18,000 nt of DNA from a bacterium (GTDB taxonomy: Bacteria > Hydrothermota > Tepidihabitantia > Tepidihabitantales > Tepidihabitantaceae). The notes beneath the pieces are model-generated. The model was not told the origin of the DNA. It was given only the letters and a program-made list of their open reading frames with translations, and ran no database searches. Both the position numbers and the translations under genes were made by a program. Shown in pieces: positions 9,553-14,787 of the stretch; the first letter of the stretch is position 1; every line of letters starts with the position of its first letter. The DNA lies in the NCBI GenBank assembly GCA_046485285.1, contig JAWOHE010000046.1:1-18000 (forward strand), in the 5' to 3' direction.

Positions 9553-10623
9553 ATGAATGCACCGCCGCTCTCCGTGGCCTTCTTTCCGGATGGCCGGGGG
9601 TGGCGTGAGAATCCTTATCTGGATCTCCTTGAAGCTGGCCTGCGGGATGTCGGGGTAGAGGTCTGCCCGGCACGGGTTAACAGCCCGCTTGTGGGCTGGC
9701 TGAAGGAGAATCGCCGCCGGGTTGACGTCCTGCACTTCCACTGGCTACACCACATCTACAACCGAAGGACCTATCGTGATTCGTTGCTGCAGGTGCTCAG
9801 ATTCGCGGCGCAGTTGGCCTATGCTCGCCGGCTCGGCTATAGAGTCGTTTGGACGGTGCACAACCTGTACCCTCACGAGCGGCCCTGGCCGCACCTCGAC
9901 CGCTGGGTGCGACGGCTGATGGTGCGATACTCCCAGGCCATCCTTGTCCACTGCGATGCCGCCCGGGAAATGGTTCAGCACGAGTTCCGGCCGCGTTCGC
10001 GAATCCACGTGGCTCCCCTGGGGAGCTACATCGGGGCGTATCGCCGGCGAGTCGCCAGAACCGCGGCCCGCCGGTGGCTCGGAGTCCCCGAAGGCAGTAT
10101 CGTCCTGCTACACCAAGGTGGCCTGCGTCCGTATAAGGGGTTGGAACAGCTCGTCCGCACCTTGGACGACATTCCGGACCCGAGGCTGGTGCTGGTGATT
10201 GCCGGGAAGGCGCACGGCGTCTACAAACTGGCGGCGACTCTCGCTGAGCGGCTCGTGCGGGATCGCCGGCTGATACTCAGGGAAGGCTGGATTCCGGACG
10301 ACGAACTGCCCGGCTACTTCGCGGCGGCCGACGCGGTCGTCTGCCCGTTCGAGGCGGTCCTGACCTCGAGCTCGGTGATGCTCGCGCTGTCACTCGGCCG
10401 CCCGGTCGTCGCGCCGGCGCTCGGTTGTCTCCCGGAACTCGTTCCCCCGGACGCCGGGATCCTCTACGACCCGAACGACCCCGCGGGCCTGCGCGACGCG
10501 CTCCTGCGCTGCGCGGCCGCGGACCTCGCGGTGATGGGCGAGCGGGCGTACCGTGTCGCGCAGACGCACACCTGGGCCGCCGCGGCCCGGGTAGTGCTCA
10601 AGGCATACACGGGGCAGGGATGA
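9553..10623 (+). CDS. Glycosyltransferase family 4 (GT-B)
   Basis: ENPYLDLL, DVLHFHW, VVWTVHNLYPHE, GGLRPYKGLEQL, YFAAADAVVCPF, LTSSSVMLALSLGRPVVAPALGCLPEL, TWAAAAR. Confidence 0.92.
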   Translation: MNAPPLSVAFFPDGRGWRENPYLDLLEAGLRDVGVEVCPARVNSPLVGWLKENRRRVDVLHFHWLHHIYNRRTYRDSLLQVLRFAAQLAYARRLGYRVVWTVHNLYPHERPWPHLDRWVRRLMVRYSQAILVHCDAAREMVQHEFRPRSRIHVAPLGSYIGAYRRRVARTAARRWLGVPEGSIVLLHQGGLRPYKGLEQLVRTLDDIPDPRLVLVIAGKAHGVYKLAATLAERLVRDRRLILREGWIPDDELPGYFAAADAVVCPFEAVLTSSSVMLALSLGRPVVAPALGCLPELVPPDAGILYDPNDPAGLRDALLRCAAADLAVMGERAYRVAQTHTWAAAARVVLKAYTGQG

Positions 10624-10917: not shown

Positions 10918-11931
10918 ATGACTGAGGACACACCCGCGGTCTCGGTCGTCATCCCGCTCTACAACAAGGAACGCCACGTCGCGCGGGCGGTCCGGTCGGT
11001 GCTCGGTCAGACCTTCGGCGACTTCGAGCTCATCATCGTCAACGACGGCTCGACCGACGGCAGCGCCGAAAAGGTCCGCGCCTTCGACGACCCGCGCATC
11101 CGCCTGCTCGCCCGCGAGCACGTCAACAGCGCTGGCGGCCACGCGGCGAGGAACCTCGGCATCGCCGAGGCGCGCGCCGACCTCGTCGCCTTTCTCGACG
11201 CTGACGACGAGTGGCTGCCGGATTATCTGCAGACTGTTGTTTCACTTGTTGGCAAATTCCCCGATGCCGCAGCTTGGTCAACTACCTACTATCGAATCTC
11301 CCCGGACGGAATCCTGGATGAGTGGCAGCCAAAGCTCTCGATTCTGGAAGGCGACCGCAGTGCCGGAATCGTCGACATCTTCCCCCATAACTCAAGACCA
11401 TTCTGTACCGATTCCATAGTTATTTGGAAGGATGCCCTCGTCTCCATCGGGGGATTCCCGGAGGGCGTGGCGAACGGCGGAGACGTCGATACGTGGTACA
11501 GGTTGGCATTTCGCCATCGCATAGCGTGTCACGCGAAGCCTAAGGTCAAGTATTACAGGAATGCGGTTAACCGTATCGATGAAAGAGACTGCGTTTGGGT
11601 GGGGGTTCGGCCATACTTCAATAGCCTTCGGGAATTCATGCGTGAAAAGGGAGGCCAAGGCGAAGTGCTGGAGGGCGTAGTCGATTCCATCATGAGGCAA
11701 CACTATTCCTGTTTCAAGTCGAATTTGGACGCGGGTAACCGCACCGCTGCACTGCGAGTAGCCTGTGACTTCGTGCGTATGAAGGGGTTCGCCTCTCAGG
11801 GTCTTGCCATGATGCTCGCCAGTCTTCCGCCATCTTGGCTTACCCGTCCACTACTGCAGTTGAGGAGATTCATCAAGTACCGCAGCTGGGGACGGCCGGA
11901 GACTGGCAGGATTCGCAGAATCTACCCTTGA
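10918..11931 (+). CDS. Glycosyltransferase family 2 (GT-A)
   Basis: VSVVIPLYNKE, IIVNDGSTDGS, AARNLGI, AFLDADDEW, IGGFPEG, GGDVDTWYRL; purine-rich RBS upstream. Confidence 0.93.
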   Translation: MTEDTPAVSVVIPLYNKERHVARAVRSVLGQTFGDFELIIVNDGSTDGSAEKVRAFDDPRIRLLAREHVNSAGGHAARNLGIAEARADLVAFLDADDEWLPDYLQTVVSLVGKFPDAAAWSTTYYRISPDGILDEWQPKLSILEGDRSAGIVDIFPHNSRPFCTDSIVIWKDALVSIGGFPEGVANGGDVDTWYRLAFRHRIACHAKPKVKYYRNAVNRIDERDCVWVGVRPYFNSLREFMREKGGQGEVLEGVVDSIMRQHYSCFKSNLDAGNRTAALRVACDFVRMKGFASQGLAMMLASLPPSWLTRPLLQLRRFIKYRSWGRPETGRIRRIYP

Positions 11932-11932
11932 A

Positions 11933-12968
11933 ATGGCTGCGGCAACCTGCCCAATATCCGTCGTCATCCCGCTCTATAACAAGGTCAACCACATCCAGCG
12001 GGCCCTGGACTCGGTCCTGGCGCAGGCGTTCCGTGACTTCGACGTCATCGTCGTCAACGACGGCTCTACCGACGGGTCGGAGAGGATTGTCGGGAGTTGC
12101 ACCGACCCTCGGGTCCGCCTTGTCCATCAGCCGAACGCCGGGGTCAGCGCCGCCCGCAACCGGGGCATAGCCGAGTCCCGCGCCGACCTCGTCGCCTTCC
12201 TCGACGCCGACGACGAATGGCTGCCCGCGCCTTCGGCGCGGGGCAGAGGAGAAATTCCTTCTGGATTCCGGGACGGACTCCCGGCGCGCAGCGCCGGGGT
12301 TCCTCGCCGCCATCATCGGCCTCCGCCGGGAGTTCCCGGACTGCGGGGCCTACGCCACCGCGCGCTCTGTCGTCGAGCCGGAGGGCCGGCGCTGGGCCCC
12401 CATCTTCACCGGCATCCCGGCGCCGCCCTGGGAAGGAATCATCCCCAACTACTTCCATTCCGCCGACGAGTTCCCCGTCTGCTCGTCGGCGGTGGCCGTG
12501 CCCCGGGCCGTCCTCGACGCCGTCGGCGGGTTCCCGGTCGGTGTTGCCTACGGCGAGGACACCGATACCTGGTGCCGGATTGCCCTGCGCTACCCGATTG
12601 CCTTCAACAGCCGGCCGCTCGCGGTCTATCACAAGGACGCCGACGAGCGGGCCTGCGACCGCGTGCGGCCGCTGGAGCACCCGATCATCAGGACGCTCGA
12701 GGCCGCGATCGCTGCCGGCGCCCTGCCCCCGGGCGTGCCGGTCGAGGACCTGGTCGAGTACAGGAACAGGTGGCGCATCCACGCCGCGGTAGCCTGCCTC
12801 CGCGCCGGGCTTCGCCCGGAAGCCAGGACCCACCTCCGCGCCGCGGCCTCGACCCGGCGCTATCGCGCCGAGTGGCGGCACCTGCGTCTCCGTTCCCGGG
12901 TCCCGGCACCGCTGTGGAACTGGGCCCGGCAGGTCAGGCTGTCCATCGTGAGGAACGCCCGTGCTTGA
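11933..12968 (+). pseudogene. Glycosyltransferase family 2 interrupted and frameshifted by a 70-bp insertion
   Basis: The N-terminal frame gives ISVVIPLYNK...AFLDADDEWLP. The GT2 sequence resumes in the +1 frame as PGFLAAIIGLRREFPDCGAYAT...VCSSAVAVPRAVLDAVGGFPVGVAYGEDTDTWCRIALRYPIAF, with its stop at 12968. Removing 12226-12295 restores DDEWLPGFL. Confidence 0.88.
12226..12295. mobile_element. 70-bp double-hairpin intragenic insertion (REP/MITE-like)
   Basis: Hairpins cccgcgcc-ttc-ggcgcggg (12224-12242) and cccggcgc-gca-gcgccggg (12280-12298); GCC is repeated at both junctions (12223-12225, 12293-12295). Confidence 0.75.
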
Positions 12969-12978
12969 GCAGTTCGGG

Positions 12979-13007
12979 TTGTGCGGCCGGCTGAATTCGG
13001 CTACGCT
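12979..13007 (+). promoter_or_regulatory. Possible internal promoter for the asnB-like gene
   Basis: TTGTGC (12979-12984), 17 nt, TACGCT (13002-13007), 10 nt before ATG 13018; no SD. Overlaps the hairpin ggctac-gct-gtagcc. Confidence 0.4.
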
Positions 13008-13017
13008 GTAGCCCGAT

Positions 13018-14787
13018 ATGAAGCCGGAGCAGATTGCCATTGCTCTCTCGCTCGACCGGGGCTTCAGCTGGCGCCATCACGTCCGGGACGGCGCGGAAGC
13101 CTGGGCCAAGGGGTATGCCTTCCACGCCGGCCGCTACTGCGACTCCGCCGGCCTCGCCGCACTGCTCGGCGAGGCCGCCCGGCAGCGGCCCGCGGCGGAC
13201 CTCGCCGGGGTCGTCCGGGAGCTCAACGGCTGTTTCGCGGTCGTCGTGCGCGACGGCGATACGGTCTTCGCCGCCGTTGACCGCCTGCGCAGCATCCCGC
13301 TCTTCTACACCGCCGAATTCGGGGACACAACCGACTTATCCCCAACTCGGATTGTGTTTCCGAATTCCGGTTCGGCGCGTAGCGCCGGAGGCCGGTTCAG
13401 CCTCGCCGACGACGCTTTCCGGTTGCGGGAGCAGGCCGGCGACACCGGCCTTGACCCGGTTTCCGAGGCCGAGTTCCTGAGGTACGGCTACGTCCTCGGC
13501 CGGGAGACGCTGTCGCCGTCGGTCAAGCAGTTACAGCCCGGTGAGTACCTTGTCGCGCATCCCGGAGGAATCGAACCCGGGTTCTACTACCTTCACACCC
13601 ATGGCAACTACCTTGACCTGCCCGAATCACGGCACTTCGACGAGCTGGACGCGATGTTCGAGGGCGTCTTCCGCCGGCTCCTCGACTCGGTCCGAGGCCG
13701 GACCATCGTCGTACCGCTGAGCGGCGGCTACGACTCGAGGTACATCGCCGTGATGCTGAGGAGCCTGGGCTGTGAGAAGGTCATCTGCTACACTTACGGC
13801 CGGGCCGACAGCTACGAGGTGGCGATGTCCCGCAGGGTGGCGGAGAAGCTGGGCTATCCGTGGCACTACGTCGAGTACGACCGGGACGCGTGGCAGGAGT
13901 ACCTCCGGTCCGAGGAGGCGGCCGAGTATGGCGCGTTCGCCGGGAACCTCGCGTCGCTTCCGTGCCTGCAGGAGAGCATAGCCGTCCGGGCGCTCCGGCG
14001 CGGCTCGACGGTCCCGGACGACGCGGTGTTCGTCCCCGGCTACTGCGGCGCGACCGGGTTCCCGGTCCCGGCCGGCGGGCCTGCCCACGCCCAGTCAGGC
14101 GGGCGGCTCACTCCGGAGCTCGTCCGGTACATCTTCGACGAGAACTTCCGGCTCGCCAACCCCATCCCGAAGACCGCCGCCCGGCGCGTCAGCGAGCATC
14201 GGGCCGAGACGCTGCGCGACTACTCCTCAGGCGACGGGATCGATGGTGTCATCAGCGCCAACGAGGCCTGGTTCACCGCCCACCGGCTCACGAGGTTCAT
14301 CGTCAACGCCGTGCGGTTCTACGAGTTCAATGGCTACGAGTGGCGCCTGCCGCTGTGGGACAGCGAGCTGACCGAGCACTGGTACCGCGTGCCGGAGAGC
14401 CTCAGGGCCGACCGGCGGCTCTACGAGGACTACCTCTTTCGCCGCGTGTTCCCGCCGCGCGGCCTGGACTGGCGGAAGCCCGTGAAGCGCCGCGGCCGGC
14501 CCGCCGGTCTCGCCCGGCGCGTCCTGAAAACCATCTTGCCGGCGCGGGCGCTCCGGGCCGTCCGGCGCGGCCGGCCCGCCGACGATGTCAACGCCTTCAC
14601 CGAGGCCTCCCGCCTGTTGCGTGACGACCTCGGCCCGGGGCGCGTCATCCCCGAGGTGACGGACGTGAGCGTCGCCTACGCGGTGTGGTTCATCCAGGCC
14701 CTGAAAGACGCGCAGTCCGCCGGGGAAGTCGCTCCGCGCCGACTCGGCCCGCGCCGGAGCATCCGGCCGCCAGGGGGTGGAGAATGA
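13018..14787 (+). CDS. Asparagine synthetase-related (AsnB-like) amide ligase
   Basis: LNGCFAVV, AAVDRLRSIPLFY, GYVLGRETL..SVKQLQPGEYL, PP-loop VPLSGGYDSR, CYTYG, EWRLPLWD. No N-terminal catalytic Cys. Confidence 0.88.
   Translation: MKPEQIAIALSLDRGFSWRHHVRDGAEAWAKGYAFHAGRYCDSAGLAALLGEAARQRPAADLAGVVRELNGCFAVVVRDGDTVFAAVDRLRSIPLFYTAEFGDTTDLSPTRIVFPNSGSARSAGGRFSLADDAFRLREQAGDTGLDPVSEAEFLRYGYVLGRETLSPSVKQLQPGEYLVAHPGGIEPGFYYLHTHGNYLDLPESRHFDELDAMFEGVFRRLLDSVRGRTIVVPLSGGYDSRYIAVMLRSLGCEKVICYTYGRADSYEVAMSRRVAEKLGYPWHYVEYDRDAWQEYLRSEEAAEYGAFAGNLASLPCLQESIAVRALRRGSTVPDDAVFVPGYCGATGFPVPAGGPAHAQSGGRLTPELVRYIFDENFRLANPIPKTAARRVSEHRAETLRDYSSGDGIDGVISANEAWFTAHRLTRFIVNAVRFYEFNGYEWRLPLWDSELTEHWYRVPESLRADRRLYEDYLFRRVFPPRGLDWRKPVKRRGRPAGLARRVLKTILPARALRAVRRGRPADDVNAFTEASRLLRDDLGPGRVIPEVTDVSVAYAVWFIQALKDAQSAGEVAPRRLGPRRSIRPPGGGE
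13315..13386. mobile_element. 72-bp palindromic in-frame intragenic insertion
   Basis: gaattcggggacacaa-ccga...tcgg-attgtgtttccgaattc long imperfect palindrome (13315-13367) followed by the hairpin cggcgc-gta-gcgccg. CGCCG is repeated at 13311-13315 and 13383-13387; the element is AT-richer than the host gene. Confidence 0.75.

What the first reader, a model, noticed from the sequence alone, without database searches (positions are those of the whole stretch)
12221..12303. 70-bp double-hairpin insert frameshifts an otherwise intact GT2: inactivation, excisable switch or recoding signal
Seen: precise removal of 70 bp restores DADDEWLPGFL and an intact gene with no other lesions. Each junction lies within an 8-bp GC stem with a 3-nt loop: GAA on the minus strand at the left, GCA on the plus strand at the right. 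The stems extend by pairing insert bases with flanking gene bases (ctgccc/ggg-g-cag; ggac-t-ccc/gggg-ttc). Pro codons flank the gap (CCC 12224, CCG 12294), and both frames are stop-free across it. Known: GNA triloops form very stable ssDNA hairpins, and translational bypassing uses matched codons plus a hairpin. Inference: the simplest reading is a recent inactivating insertion. Alternatives are reversible excision (phase variation of glycan structure), RNA-level removal, or a ribosomal hop or +1 shift.
Basis: partly seen in the sequence, partly recalled or inferred. Interest (0 to 1): 0.8.

Follow-up and report, generated by a model that had tools for sequence, protein, structure and literature searches.

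The report
Repeat element copy breaks glycosyltransferase gene
The 70-base insert is one copy of a small hairpin-rich repeat that is scattered through this bacterium's genome and usually sits harmlessly in frame inside genes, but this shortened copy shifts the reading frame and most likely switches the sugar-transferase gene off.

Summary
Taking out 70 nt gives an intact 322-codon GT2 whose two halves abut exactly, as in the neighbouring paralogue and in intact homologues.

The insert is not unique. It is one of 36 copies of a dispersed GC-rich element in this 2.34-Mb WOR-3 genome. The full form is about 96-99 nt, with three hairpins.

Ten copies lie deep inside genes and nine keep the frame. 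These are Ddl, GcvPA, MutM, an aminotransferase, an M23 peptidase, a CCA/poly(A) polymerase, a molybdopterin oxidoreductase, a propeller protein and a TPR protein. Same-genus orthologues lack these inserts. In a Ddl model the insert is a disordered loop. This resembles Rickettsia palindromic elements.

The GT2 copy is the one frame-breaker. It has a 73-nt-type core but lacks the 5' hairpin module. I read it as insertional inactivation, perhaps in two steps.

No evidence supports bypassing, programmed frameshifting or RNA removal. Reversible excision and an assembly error could not be tested, because no reads or close strains were found.

This is a new member of a known kind. The scan has noted similar elements in other phyla.

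The parts
11933..12226 (+). GT2 gene, N-terminal 98 codons up to the DADDEWLP motif. As assembled, this frame runs on out of frame to 12994 (353-aa ORF).
   Evidence: ORF list. Pfam PF00535 matches residues 9-96 to profile positions 1-91 of 168, E 1.3e-28 (protein 1). 63% identical to paralogue residues 1-100.
12225..12294 (+). 70-nt insert: the core of the dispersed three-hairpin element (73-nt-type core, without the 5' hairpin module). The borders are ambiguous by a few bases: any 70-nt block starting at 12223-12228 restores the same protein. The family model matches 12225-12297.
   Evidence: Deletion scan. nhmmer model match at 12225-12297, E 2.1e-18. Alignment with other copies. Nearest copy is C53:23733-23805 at 89%.
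12224..12242 (.). Element hairpin 1: 8-bp GC stem with loop TTC (GAA on the minus strand).
   Evidence: (I9). The stem is conserved in the family; the loop is TTC in 13 and TGC in 6 of 26 aligned copies.
12243..12279 (+). Less GC-rich spacer of the element. It holds an SD-like AGGAG and the conserved block GGATTCCGG(G/A)ACGGACT.
   Evidence: Family alignment and its invariant columns. Motif counts in the genome.
12280..12298 (.). Element hairpin 2: 8-bp GC stem with loop GCA. Its last bases (CCGGG) may come from the target site.
   Evidence: The loop varies (GCA 6, GGA 5, GTA 4, others 11 of 26). S-CCGG is present at the orthologous empty sites of other copies.
12294..12968 (+). GT2 gene, C-terminal 224 codons plus stop, in the +1 frame relative to the N-terminal part. 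No further lesion was seen.
   Evidence: Translation. Aligns to paralogue residues 101-290. 65% identity over 96% of its length to the intact 327-aa GT2 P0003. Alignment.
10918..11931 (+). Intact paralogous GT2 immediately upstream. It serves as the reference for the uninterrupted gene.
   Evidence: (protein 3).

Best explanation
The insert is a copy of a non-autonomous, hairpin-rich dispersed repeat, a MITE/REP-like palindromic element that is largely specific to this WOR-3 species.

The full element has two parts: a 5' hairpin module (CCCGGCGGCC-loop-GGCCGCCGGG-AAG) and a 72- or 73-nt core. The core holds hairpin 1, a less GC-rich spacer and hairpin 2. Where the element lands inside genes it survives only if it keeps the frame, and it is then read through as an extra loop of about 28-38 residues.

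The GT2 copy has a 73-nt-type core but no 5' module. The net insert is therefore 70 nt and the frame shifts by +1 right after the DXD-type motif. As assembled, the gene encodes 98 correct residues followed by an out-of-frame tail, so it is inactivated. This should be tolerable because the gene is an accessory glycan gene with a paralogue next door.

Shown: family membership, the frame break, and the in-frame habit of the other intragenic copies.

Inferred: loss of function, and the history. I slightly favour two steps: first an in-frame full-length insertion, then loss of the 5' hairpin by slippage between short CCG repeats. A one-step insertion of a 5'-truncated copy is the alternative.

The mobilising enzyme is unknown.
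For: Family membership. There are 36 nhmmer hits at E <= 1e-3 after three rounds (30, 34, 36). Thirty-one BLAST matches have E < 1e-7. The window copy is the top hit.

The 5' module. It directly precedes the core in most copies and is absent in the window copy.

In-frame habit. Ten copies lie deep inside genes. Nine are in frame, with net gains relative to same-genus orthologues that lack the insert:
- Ddl +31 codons, GcvPA +29, MutM +38
- aminotransferase +30, M23 peptidase +30, CCA/poly(A) polymerase +31, propeller protein +28, molybdopterin oxidoreductase net +9
- one antisense copy in a TPR protein
P(>=9 of 10 | 1/3) = 3.6e-4.

No fixed peptide. All three sense frames of the element are used among the copies.

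Ddl. Of the 119 other best Ddl homologues listed (120 listed, counting this genome's own protein), most are 323-345 aa against 359 aa here. In the AlphaFold2 model (mean pLDDT 83.2) the only long low-confidence stretch is residues 182-211, which is the insert.

For a two-step history. The GT2 C-terminal part is in frame with the same element reading (PRLRRG..FL.DSGTDSRR.AP) that the in-frame 73-nt-core copies in Ddl and M23 use. The other 73-nt-core copies I aligned carry the 5' module. The copy is only 89% identical to its nearest sibling, yet the gene has no other lesion.

MITE insertional inactivation and in-frame RPE fusions are described in PMC10969869 (passages read).
Against: - No reads, strains or transcripts could be examined, so loss of function is inferred from the consensus sequence alone.
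- The gene is otherwise intact and 9 of 10 intragenic copies are in frame. That would also fit a true in-frame copy that was mis-assembled.
- In a 69% GC genome long open frames are common, so 'no further stop' is weak evidence of a recent event.
- The classification of the remaining 26 copies as intergenic or at gene ends rests on my reading of ORFs and Pfam hits. It was not checked one by one.
- No transposase with matching ends was found, and there is no variable target-site duplication. Mobility is inferred from distribution only.
Confidence: 0.75

Rival explanations
1. Consensus or assembly artefact, or a minority allele. In the real dominant genome the copy is full length or otherwise a multiple of 3, and GT2 is functional with an extra loop like the nine other genes.
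For: - Nine of 10 intragenic copies are in frame.
- The gene has no other lesion.
- The element frame leading into the C-terminal part is the one used in the in-frame Ddl and M23 copies.
- The genome is a 102-contig draft, 88% complete.
- Another oddity in this genome could also be a consensus error: a 77-nt tandem duplication splits the Y1 transposase gene.
Against: - The core of the window copy has the same 73-nt length as other copies of its type, so no small indel lies inside it.
- About 25 nt, a whole hairpin module, would have to be missing with a clean joint.
- At least 20 other copies were assembled with that module. From my own knowledge, a 21-nt hairpin is shorter than usual assembly k-mers.
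Confidence: 0.1
2. Reversible switch. The element excises precisely as hairpin-bearing single-stranded DNA, cut by a tyrosine (HUH/Y1) transposase as in IS200/IS605 or REP/RAYT systems. GT2 then flips between off and on.
For: - Exact removal restores the gene.
- Both ends are hairpins whose loops tend to GNA on opposite strands: 19 of 26 and 17 of 26 copies.
- The genome has one Y1 transposase gene with a sub-threshold match to the RAYT model NF047646 (58.5 bits against a cut-off of 80).
- Its flanking inverted repeats share an ATTCCGGG(G)AC motif with the element spacer.
- REPINs are described as mobilised by single-copy RAYTs (abstracts seen in the listing; passages of PMC3733652).
Against: - The Y1 gene is split by a 77-nt tandem duplication.
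- It is flanked by a different repeat family. No copy of this element lies on its contig.
- The element carries neither the GTAG nor the CGTC end tag (compared with PMC3733652).
- The nine in-frame copies are fixed in essential genes, so selection for frame rather than excision explains their survival.
- No insert-free allele was found, but none could have been found.
Confidence: 0.05
3. Translational recoding. Ribosomes regain the C-terminal frame either by a +1 slip on the G-GGG run at 12296-12299 in front of a rare GTT codon, or by hopping from CCC (12224) to CCG (12294).
For: - Both frames are open across the insert.
- In the incoming frame, GGG GTT at the 3' junction allows a perfect +1 re-pairing onto GGG and then reads TTC, the correct frame (sequence).
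- GTT is rare: 5.1 per 1000 codons against 53 for GTC.
- The insert is rich in rare codons in that frame: AGA 1.45, TCT 1.2 and CCT 2.9 per 1000.
- A hairpin starts at the would-be take-off codon.
Against: - The G run and the hairpins are generic features of the repeat, present at most copies.
- No stop codon follows the take-off codon, and the two Pro codons differ.
- The SD-like AGGAG lies about 45 nt from the G run.
- No second example or orthologue exists in which to test conservation: no GT2 orthologue was found in the 4 same-genus genomes.
- The frame bias of the other copies shows that the element is normally read through.
Confidence: 0.03

Closest known systems
Rickettsia palindromic elements (RPEs; Ogata et al. 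2000, as summarised in PMC10969869, passages read)
   Same: A dispersed palindromic repeat of about 100 nt. Many copies lie inside unrelated housekeeping genes, in frame and co-linear with the host protein. Orthologues lack the insert. The insert falls between secondary-structure elements in the one protein modelled (Ddl).
   Different: - No sequence relationship was seen or expected: this element is GC-rich, in a 69% GC WOR-3 genome.
- It is shorter (72-99 nt against about 150).
- It lacks the CGTC end tag that PMC3733652 reports for RPEs.
- All three frames are used, so there is no conserved peptide.
- The copy under study breaks the frame.
REP/REPIN elements with RAYT transposases, and TIR families with 'TIRYT' transposases (PMC3733652 passages; REPIN abstracts in the listing)
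   Same: Short GC hairpins with stems more conserved than loops. The two end hairpins are in mutually inverted orientation. The genome has a single-copy Y1 transposase. REPs inside genes have been reported (abstract of PMC3733652).
   Different: - The Y1 gene here is flanked by another repeat and looks disrupted.
- There is no GTAG tag.
- Ten of 36 copies are deep inside genes, whereas REPs are mainly extragenic.
MITE-mediated insertional gene inactivation (general; PMC10969869)
   Same: A small non-coding repeat inside an otherwise intact accessory gene, shifting the frame.
   Different: - Only short terminal inverted repeats (CCCGG...CCGGG).
- No variable target-site duplication.
- No parent IS with the same ends was found.
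Phage T4 gene 60 translational bypassing (recalled, no call)
   Same: A non-coding gap of tens of nucleotides inside a gene, with a hairpin at the 5' edge and Pro codons on both sides.
   Different: - The take-off and landing codons are not identical.
- There is no stop after take-off.
- The gap is 70 nt, not 50.
- The gap is a copy of a genomic repeat that is translated elsewhere.

Membership tests
The dispersed three-hairpin repeat of this genome | Sequence match over the whole 72/73-nt core | tested here: met
   nhmmer match to model positions 1-73, E 2.1e-18. 77-89% identity to the 30 other copies that match at E < 1e-7.
The dispersed three-hairpin repeat of this genome | 5' hairpin module CCCGGCGGCC-loop-GGCCGCCGGG-AAG directly before the core | tested here: not met
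   The window has gene sequence (..GAATGGCTGC) in its place. The copy is a shortened member. At least six other copies also lack the module, by eye.
RPE-like coding palindromic elements | Repeat copies inside ORFs that keep the frame and are absent from orthologues | tested here: met
   This holds for the family: 9 of 10 deep intragenic copies. It does not hold for the GT2 copy itself, which is out of frame.
RPE-like coding palindromic elements | The insert is actually translated and compatible with the fold | tested here: inconclusive
   The AlphaFold2 model of Ddl places the insert (residues 182-211) as a low-confidence loop between helix 166-179 and strand 215-219. There are no protein data.
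RPE-like coding palindromic elements | Homology to Rickettsia RPE families, or a CGTC end tag | tested here: not met
   The family consensus has no CGTC or GTAG at either end. No Rfam family reaches its threshold in 11800-12700 (best 20.1 bits against 50). It is an analogue, not a relative.
Classical MITE | Terminal inverted repeats plus a target-site duplication | tested here: inconclusive
   The ends read CCCGG...CCGGG in most full copies, and no variable duplication is seen. S-CCGG lies at the orthologous empty site for 6 of 8 insertions. The background for one sequence is 0.12 within +-6 nt. With 2-3 orthologues per site the chance level is higher.
Classical MITE | A parent IS with the same ends | tested here: not met
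   No element copy lies next to the 3 rve genes or the Y1 gene. DDE_Tnp_1 and TnpB were not found, and the only IS110 hit is weak. The genome is 88% complete.
REPIN/RAYT system | A single-copy RAYT flanked by the same REP | tested here: not met
   One Y1 gene on C44 scores 58.5 bits against NF047646, below its cut-off of 80. It is flanked by a different 26-nt inverted repeat and another repeat family.
Gene-60-type translational bypass | Identical take-off and landing codons, and a stop directly after take-off | tested here: not met
   The codons are CCC and CCG. The codon after take-off is GCG.
Gene-60-type translational bypass | A hairpin at the take-off site | tested here: met
   The hairpin at 12224-12242. 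It is the element's own hairpin.
prfB-type +1 programmed frameshift | A slippery codon before a stop or hungry codon, with an SD-like stimulator a few nt upstream | tested here: not met
   GGG GTT allows a +1 slip and GTT is rare. There is no stop, and AGGAG (12248-12252) lies about 45 nt upstream.
Glycosyltransferase family 2 | PF00535 domain with a DXD-type motif, and co-linear N- and C-terminal parts | tested here: met
   (protein 1). The gene is split by the frame shift.

The most novel reading that the evidence does not exclude
The frame break is not a dead end. In one version the element is cut out precisely as hairpin DNA by a tyrosine/HUH enzyme. In the other, a fraction of ribosomes slip +1 on the G-GGG run at the 3' junction before the rare GTT codon. 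Either way this glycan gene would be expressed conditionally or at a low level, and the repeat family would act as a built-in switch for surface-sugar genes.
Probability: 0.07. Interest if true: 0.7.

Novelty: new member of a known kind. Interest (0 to 1): 0.35.

Why it matters
For this gene, the result turns an apparent recoding signal into an ordinary explanation: a copy of a genomic repeat broke an accessory glycosyltransferase.

For the genome, it shows that a GC-rich, free-living candidate-phylum bacterium (WOR-3) carries 'coding palindromes'. They sit in frame inside enzymes such as D-Ala-D-Ala ligase, MutM and the glycine-cleavage P protein. This habit is best known from Rickettsia.

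That matters for annotation. These inserts look like frameshifts, odd loops or split genes. As assembled, the GT2 would be called a 353-aa protein with a false C-terminus.

It also matters for how mobile DNA adds loops to proteins.

My two searches found no paper that describes such elements in WOR-3. This scan has already noted analogous families in other phyla.

Tried and rejected
- Sequencing runs holding 11850-12750: none was listed, and no RNA holder was listed.
- Metagenome contigs with the exact 23-mer at the left joint: 85 loci matched and 80 were fetched. The best is only 72-76% identical to the gene over its N-terminal part, and none of the 80 holds the element. There is no population information.
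- Exact 25-mer of the element spacer in genome contigs: 0 matches. The window's own genome may be left out of that scan.
- DNA search of the four same-genus genomes with the whole gene: nothing.
- Wrong-frame searches. (protein 2), 34 and 35 used window:12296-12967, which is the wrong reading frame for the C-terminal part. Their results are void and were repeated with 12294-12965. Pfam was not re-run on the correct C-terminal frame; I rely on the precomputed domains of its homologues.
- Rfam: 4 weak hits, all far below threshold.
- Covariation: 0 of 20 predicted pairs show a double change. The copies are too alike, so this tests nothing about the structure.
- Conserved GNA triloops: only a tendency, 19 of 26 and 17 of 26. 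The copies are related by descent, so this is not a statistic.
- Strict sense orientation of intragenic copies: rejected after the TPR gene proved to hold an antisense in-frame copy.
- The 5' hairpin module as an independent repeat: rejected. Of 78 loci matching its pattern with up to 2 mismatches, the 20 good ones adjoin a core, and the rest look like unrelated GC-rich sequence.
- GT2 orthologues: none in the 4 same-genus genomes. Homologues exist in 3 of the 40 relatives.

Full report
**1. The observation**

The window holds a glycan-synthesis cluster:
- a GT1/GT4 gene at 9553-10623
- an intact GT2 at 10918-11931
- a second GT2 starting at 11933
- an asparagine-synthase-like gene at 13018-14787

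The second GT2 reads correctly for 98 codons (Pfam PF00535, E 1.3e-28). It then runs out of frame. The rest of the protein lies in the +1 frame from 12294 to 12968.

Deleting any 70-nt block that starts at 12223-12228 gives one open frame of 322 codons.
- The N-terminal part aligns to residues 1-100 of the neighbouring paralogue.
- The C-terminal part aligns to residues 101-290.
- Five of the intact homologues of about 320 aa found, aligned with the paralogue, read straight through the joint.

The two 8-bp hairpins are real. The region folds better than shuffles, with z about -2.7 as DNA and -2.6 as RNA.

**2. What the insert is**

A search of the window's own genome (2.34 Mb, 102 contigs, 69% GC, 88% complete) with the insert found 31 further matches below E 1e-7. 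Three rounds of nhmmer gave 36 copies.

The alignment shows a 72- or 73-nt core:
- hairpin 1: CCGCGCC-loop-GGCGCGG
- a spacer with AGAAGGAG or CAGAGGAG and the invariant block GGATTCCGGAACGGACT
- hairpin 2: CCCGGCGC-loop-GCGCCGGG

Most copies carry a further 5' module directly before the core: CCCGGCGGCC-loop-GGCCGCCGGG-AAG. This module is not an independent repeat. Of 78 loci that fit its pattern, the 20 good ones adjoin a core.

Stems are nearly invariant and loops vary. No pair shows a double change (0 of 20), so covariation says nothing either way.

The family is close to species-specific:
- Of 40 relatives, only one sister species matched at E <= 0.001.
- With that species' copy as query there were 5 matches in that genome, 1 in a second sister species and 0 in the two others.
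- An exact 25-mer scan of species-representative genomes found nothing.

**3. The family's habit inside genes**

I used frame-specific GC content, ORFs and Pfam. By these, ten copies lie deep inside genes and the other 26 lie between genes or at gene ends. That second classification is my reading and was not verified copy by copy.

For eight sense-oriented intragenic copies, same-genus orthologues align on both sides, are contiguous, and lack the insert:

| Host gene | Net gain (codons) |
|---|---|
| Ddl | +31 |
| GcvPA | +29 |
| MutM | +38 |
| class I/II aminotransferase | +30 |
| M23 peptidase | +30 |
| PolyA_pol/CCA enzyme | +31 |
| propeller-like protein | +28 |
| molybdopterin oxidoreductase | net +9 |

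In the oxidoreductase a 24-codon core-only copy replaces about 15 residues.

A ninth copy lies in frame but antisense in the variable N-terminal region of a TPR protein.

So nine of ten intragenic copies keep the frame, which has P = 3.6e-4 if frame were random. The tenth is the GT2 copy.

The copies use all three sense frames. No particular peptide is conserved, so the insert behaves as a tolerated passenger.

Of the 119 other best Ddl homologues listed, most are 323-345 aa against 359 aa here. An AlphaFold2 model of this Ddl, built on 40 sequences (mean pLDDT 83.2, pTM 0.84), has a single long low-confidence segment at residues 182-211. That is the insert, and it lies between a helix and a strand.

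This is the pattern described for Rickettsia palindromic elements (PMC10969869, passages read). Di Nocera et al. report REPs inside genes in several species (PMC3733652, abstract and passages).

**4. Why the GT2 copy breaks the frame**

There are two core types.
- The 72-nt type can be in frame on its own, as in the oxidoreductase, or together with the module.
- The 73-nt type, which has an extra base in GG(G/A)(G/C)CAGA(G/T)GAG, is in frame in Ddl and M23 only together with the 5' module.

The GT2 copy has the 73-nt type. Its nearest relative is the M23 copy at 89%. It has no module, so the net insert is 70 nt.

The GT2 C-terminal part is in frame with the same element reading that Ddl and M23 use. 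The left joint also allows a deletion between two CCG triplets that would remove just the module. This last point is an inference from the family consensus.

The copy differs from every sibling by at least 11%, and the gene is otherwise intact. Together these make a two-step history somewhat more attractive than a single truncated insertion: first a tolerated in-frame full-length insertion, then loss of the 5' hairpin. Other core-only copies exist, so the one-step route is also possible. The data cannot decide, and 'recent' is not established.

**5. Target and mobility**

No variable target-site duplication is visible. The ends read CCCGG...CCGGG.

At the orthologous empty sites, a motif S-CCGG lies at the joint in 6 of 8 cases: Ddl, MutM, the aminotransferase, M23, the propeller protein and the oxidoreductase. 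The background for one sequence is 0.12 within +-6 nt. I accepted a hit in any of 2-3 orthologues per site, so the real chance level is higher and the result is suggestive only.

The inferred empty GT2 site also carries this motif (CTGCC[C/G]GGGTTC), but that site is not an independent case.

Transposase genes found in the genome:
- Three rve-type genes.
- One Y1/HUH gene. It matches the RAYT model below its cut-off (58.5 bits against 80) and is split by a 77-nt tandem duplication. It is flanked by a 26-nt inverted repeat of a different repeat family.

DDE_Tnp_1 and TnpB were not found, and the only IS110 hit is weak.

The mobilising enzyme is therefore unknown. The shared ATTCCGGG(G)AC motif between the Y1 gene's inverted repeats and the element spacer is a lead, not evidence.

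**6.

RNA-level removal and ribosome hopping would make the reading frame irrelevant. The strong in-frame bias of the family argues that the element is read through.

Gene-60-type features are not met. The codons are CCC and CCG, and no stop follows the take-off codon.

A +1 slip on G-GGG before the rare GTT codon is formally possible. GTT occurs 5.1 times per 1000 codons, and the slip would land exactly in the right frame. But the G run is a generic end of the repeat, and nothing else supports this reading.

Precise excision cannot be excluded. It has no positive support beyond the hairpin architecture and a broken Y1 gene.

An assembly or consensus error is a real rival at about 10%. It would make all ten intragenic copies in frame. 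Against it, at least 20 other copies were assembled with their 5' module.

**7. Verdict**

The insert is a shortened copy of a species-specific, RPE-like palindromic repeat. As assembled, it inactivates an accessory GT2. The finding as posed is ordinary.

The family behind it is a new member of a known kind and is moderately interesting. This scan has noted analogous coding palindromes in other phyla.

No paper was found in two searches: 'WOR-3' with 'MITE', 0 papers, and the RPE search, whose 6 papers concern other organisms. The library does not cover subscription journals, so this is not proof of absence.

Noticed in passing
G000:C44:28764-29506 (L066 1462-2204): This is the only Y1/HUH transposase gene found. 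It matches the RAYT model below cut-off (NF047646, 58.5 bits against 80). An exact 77-nt tandem duplication (L066 about 1790-1866 and 1867-1943) shifts its frame. It is flanked by 26-nt inverted repeats that begin TAATTCCGGGGAC, which resembles the 'TIRYT' arrangement of PMC3733652.
   Followed up: partly
G000, e.g. C42:6845 and 7595, C61:35332 and 36667, C68:18348; also C85:266-495, C19:18639-18699, C26:4837-5065 and many contig ends: Two further repeat families border the Y1 gene. One is GGGGATTCCGGGGACAT(A)ATACTTAACTCCC. The other is a GTAACCCCGGGAGTTAC-type repeat with hits on more than 20 contigs, often at contig ends.
   Followed up: partly
G000:C53:23104-24591 (minus strand): One M23 peptidase gene carries two copies of the element. 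One lies mid-gene and in frame (+30 codons). The other supplies the last residues and runs into the stop codon.
   Followed up: partly
G000:C75:19596-19883 and C75:15913-15984: The copy at C75:19653 lies in a duplicated fragment of the CCA/poly(A)-polymerase gene. The fragment is 56% identical at protein level over residues 281-376 and holds 2 TGA. The core is 98.6% identical. This copy therefore arose by segmental duplication, not by transposition.
   Followed up: partly
G000:C62:5380-5560, C95:5650-5830, C101:37700-37870: Three intergenic copies sit inside a larger outer inverted repeat (..CCAAGGCACAAAGAAC [element] ..GTGTCTTGGTGTT..). They may be a longer composite form, or an insertion into another palindrome.
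   Followed up: no
G000:C96:7359-7433, C90:16172-16241, C95:5703-5775, C48:8372-8443, C11:17262-17335: A longer variant of the element has an extra 3' hairpin (..GCGTGCTGCGCC(G/A)G CAGTTCC..GCCGGGG). This variant gives the +38-codon insert in MutM.
   Followed up: no
window 11933-12994 and 12492-12968: As assembled, the broken GT2 yields a 353-aa ORF with a false C-terminus that runs past the true stop. A 156-aa protein from the true C-terminal frame is already in the protein database (P0002). Both are likely mis-annotations.
   Followed up: yes
window 11929-11935: The broken GT2 starts one base after the stop codon of the intact paralogue. The two tandem GT2 genes are 63% identical over their first 100 residues, so they look like an old duplication within one operon.
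   Followed up: partly
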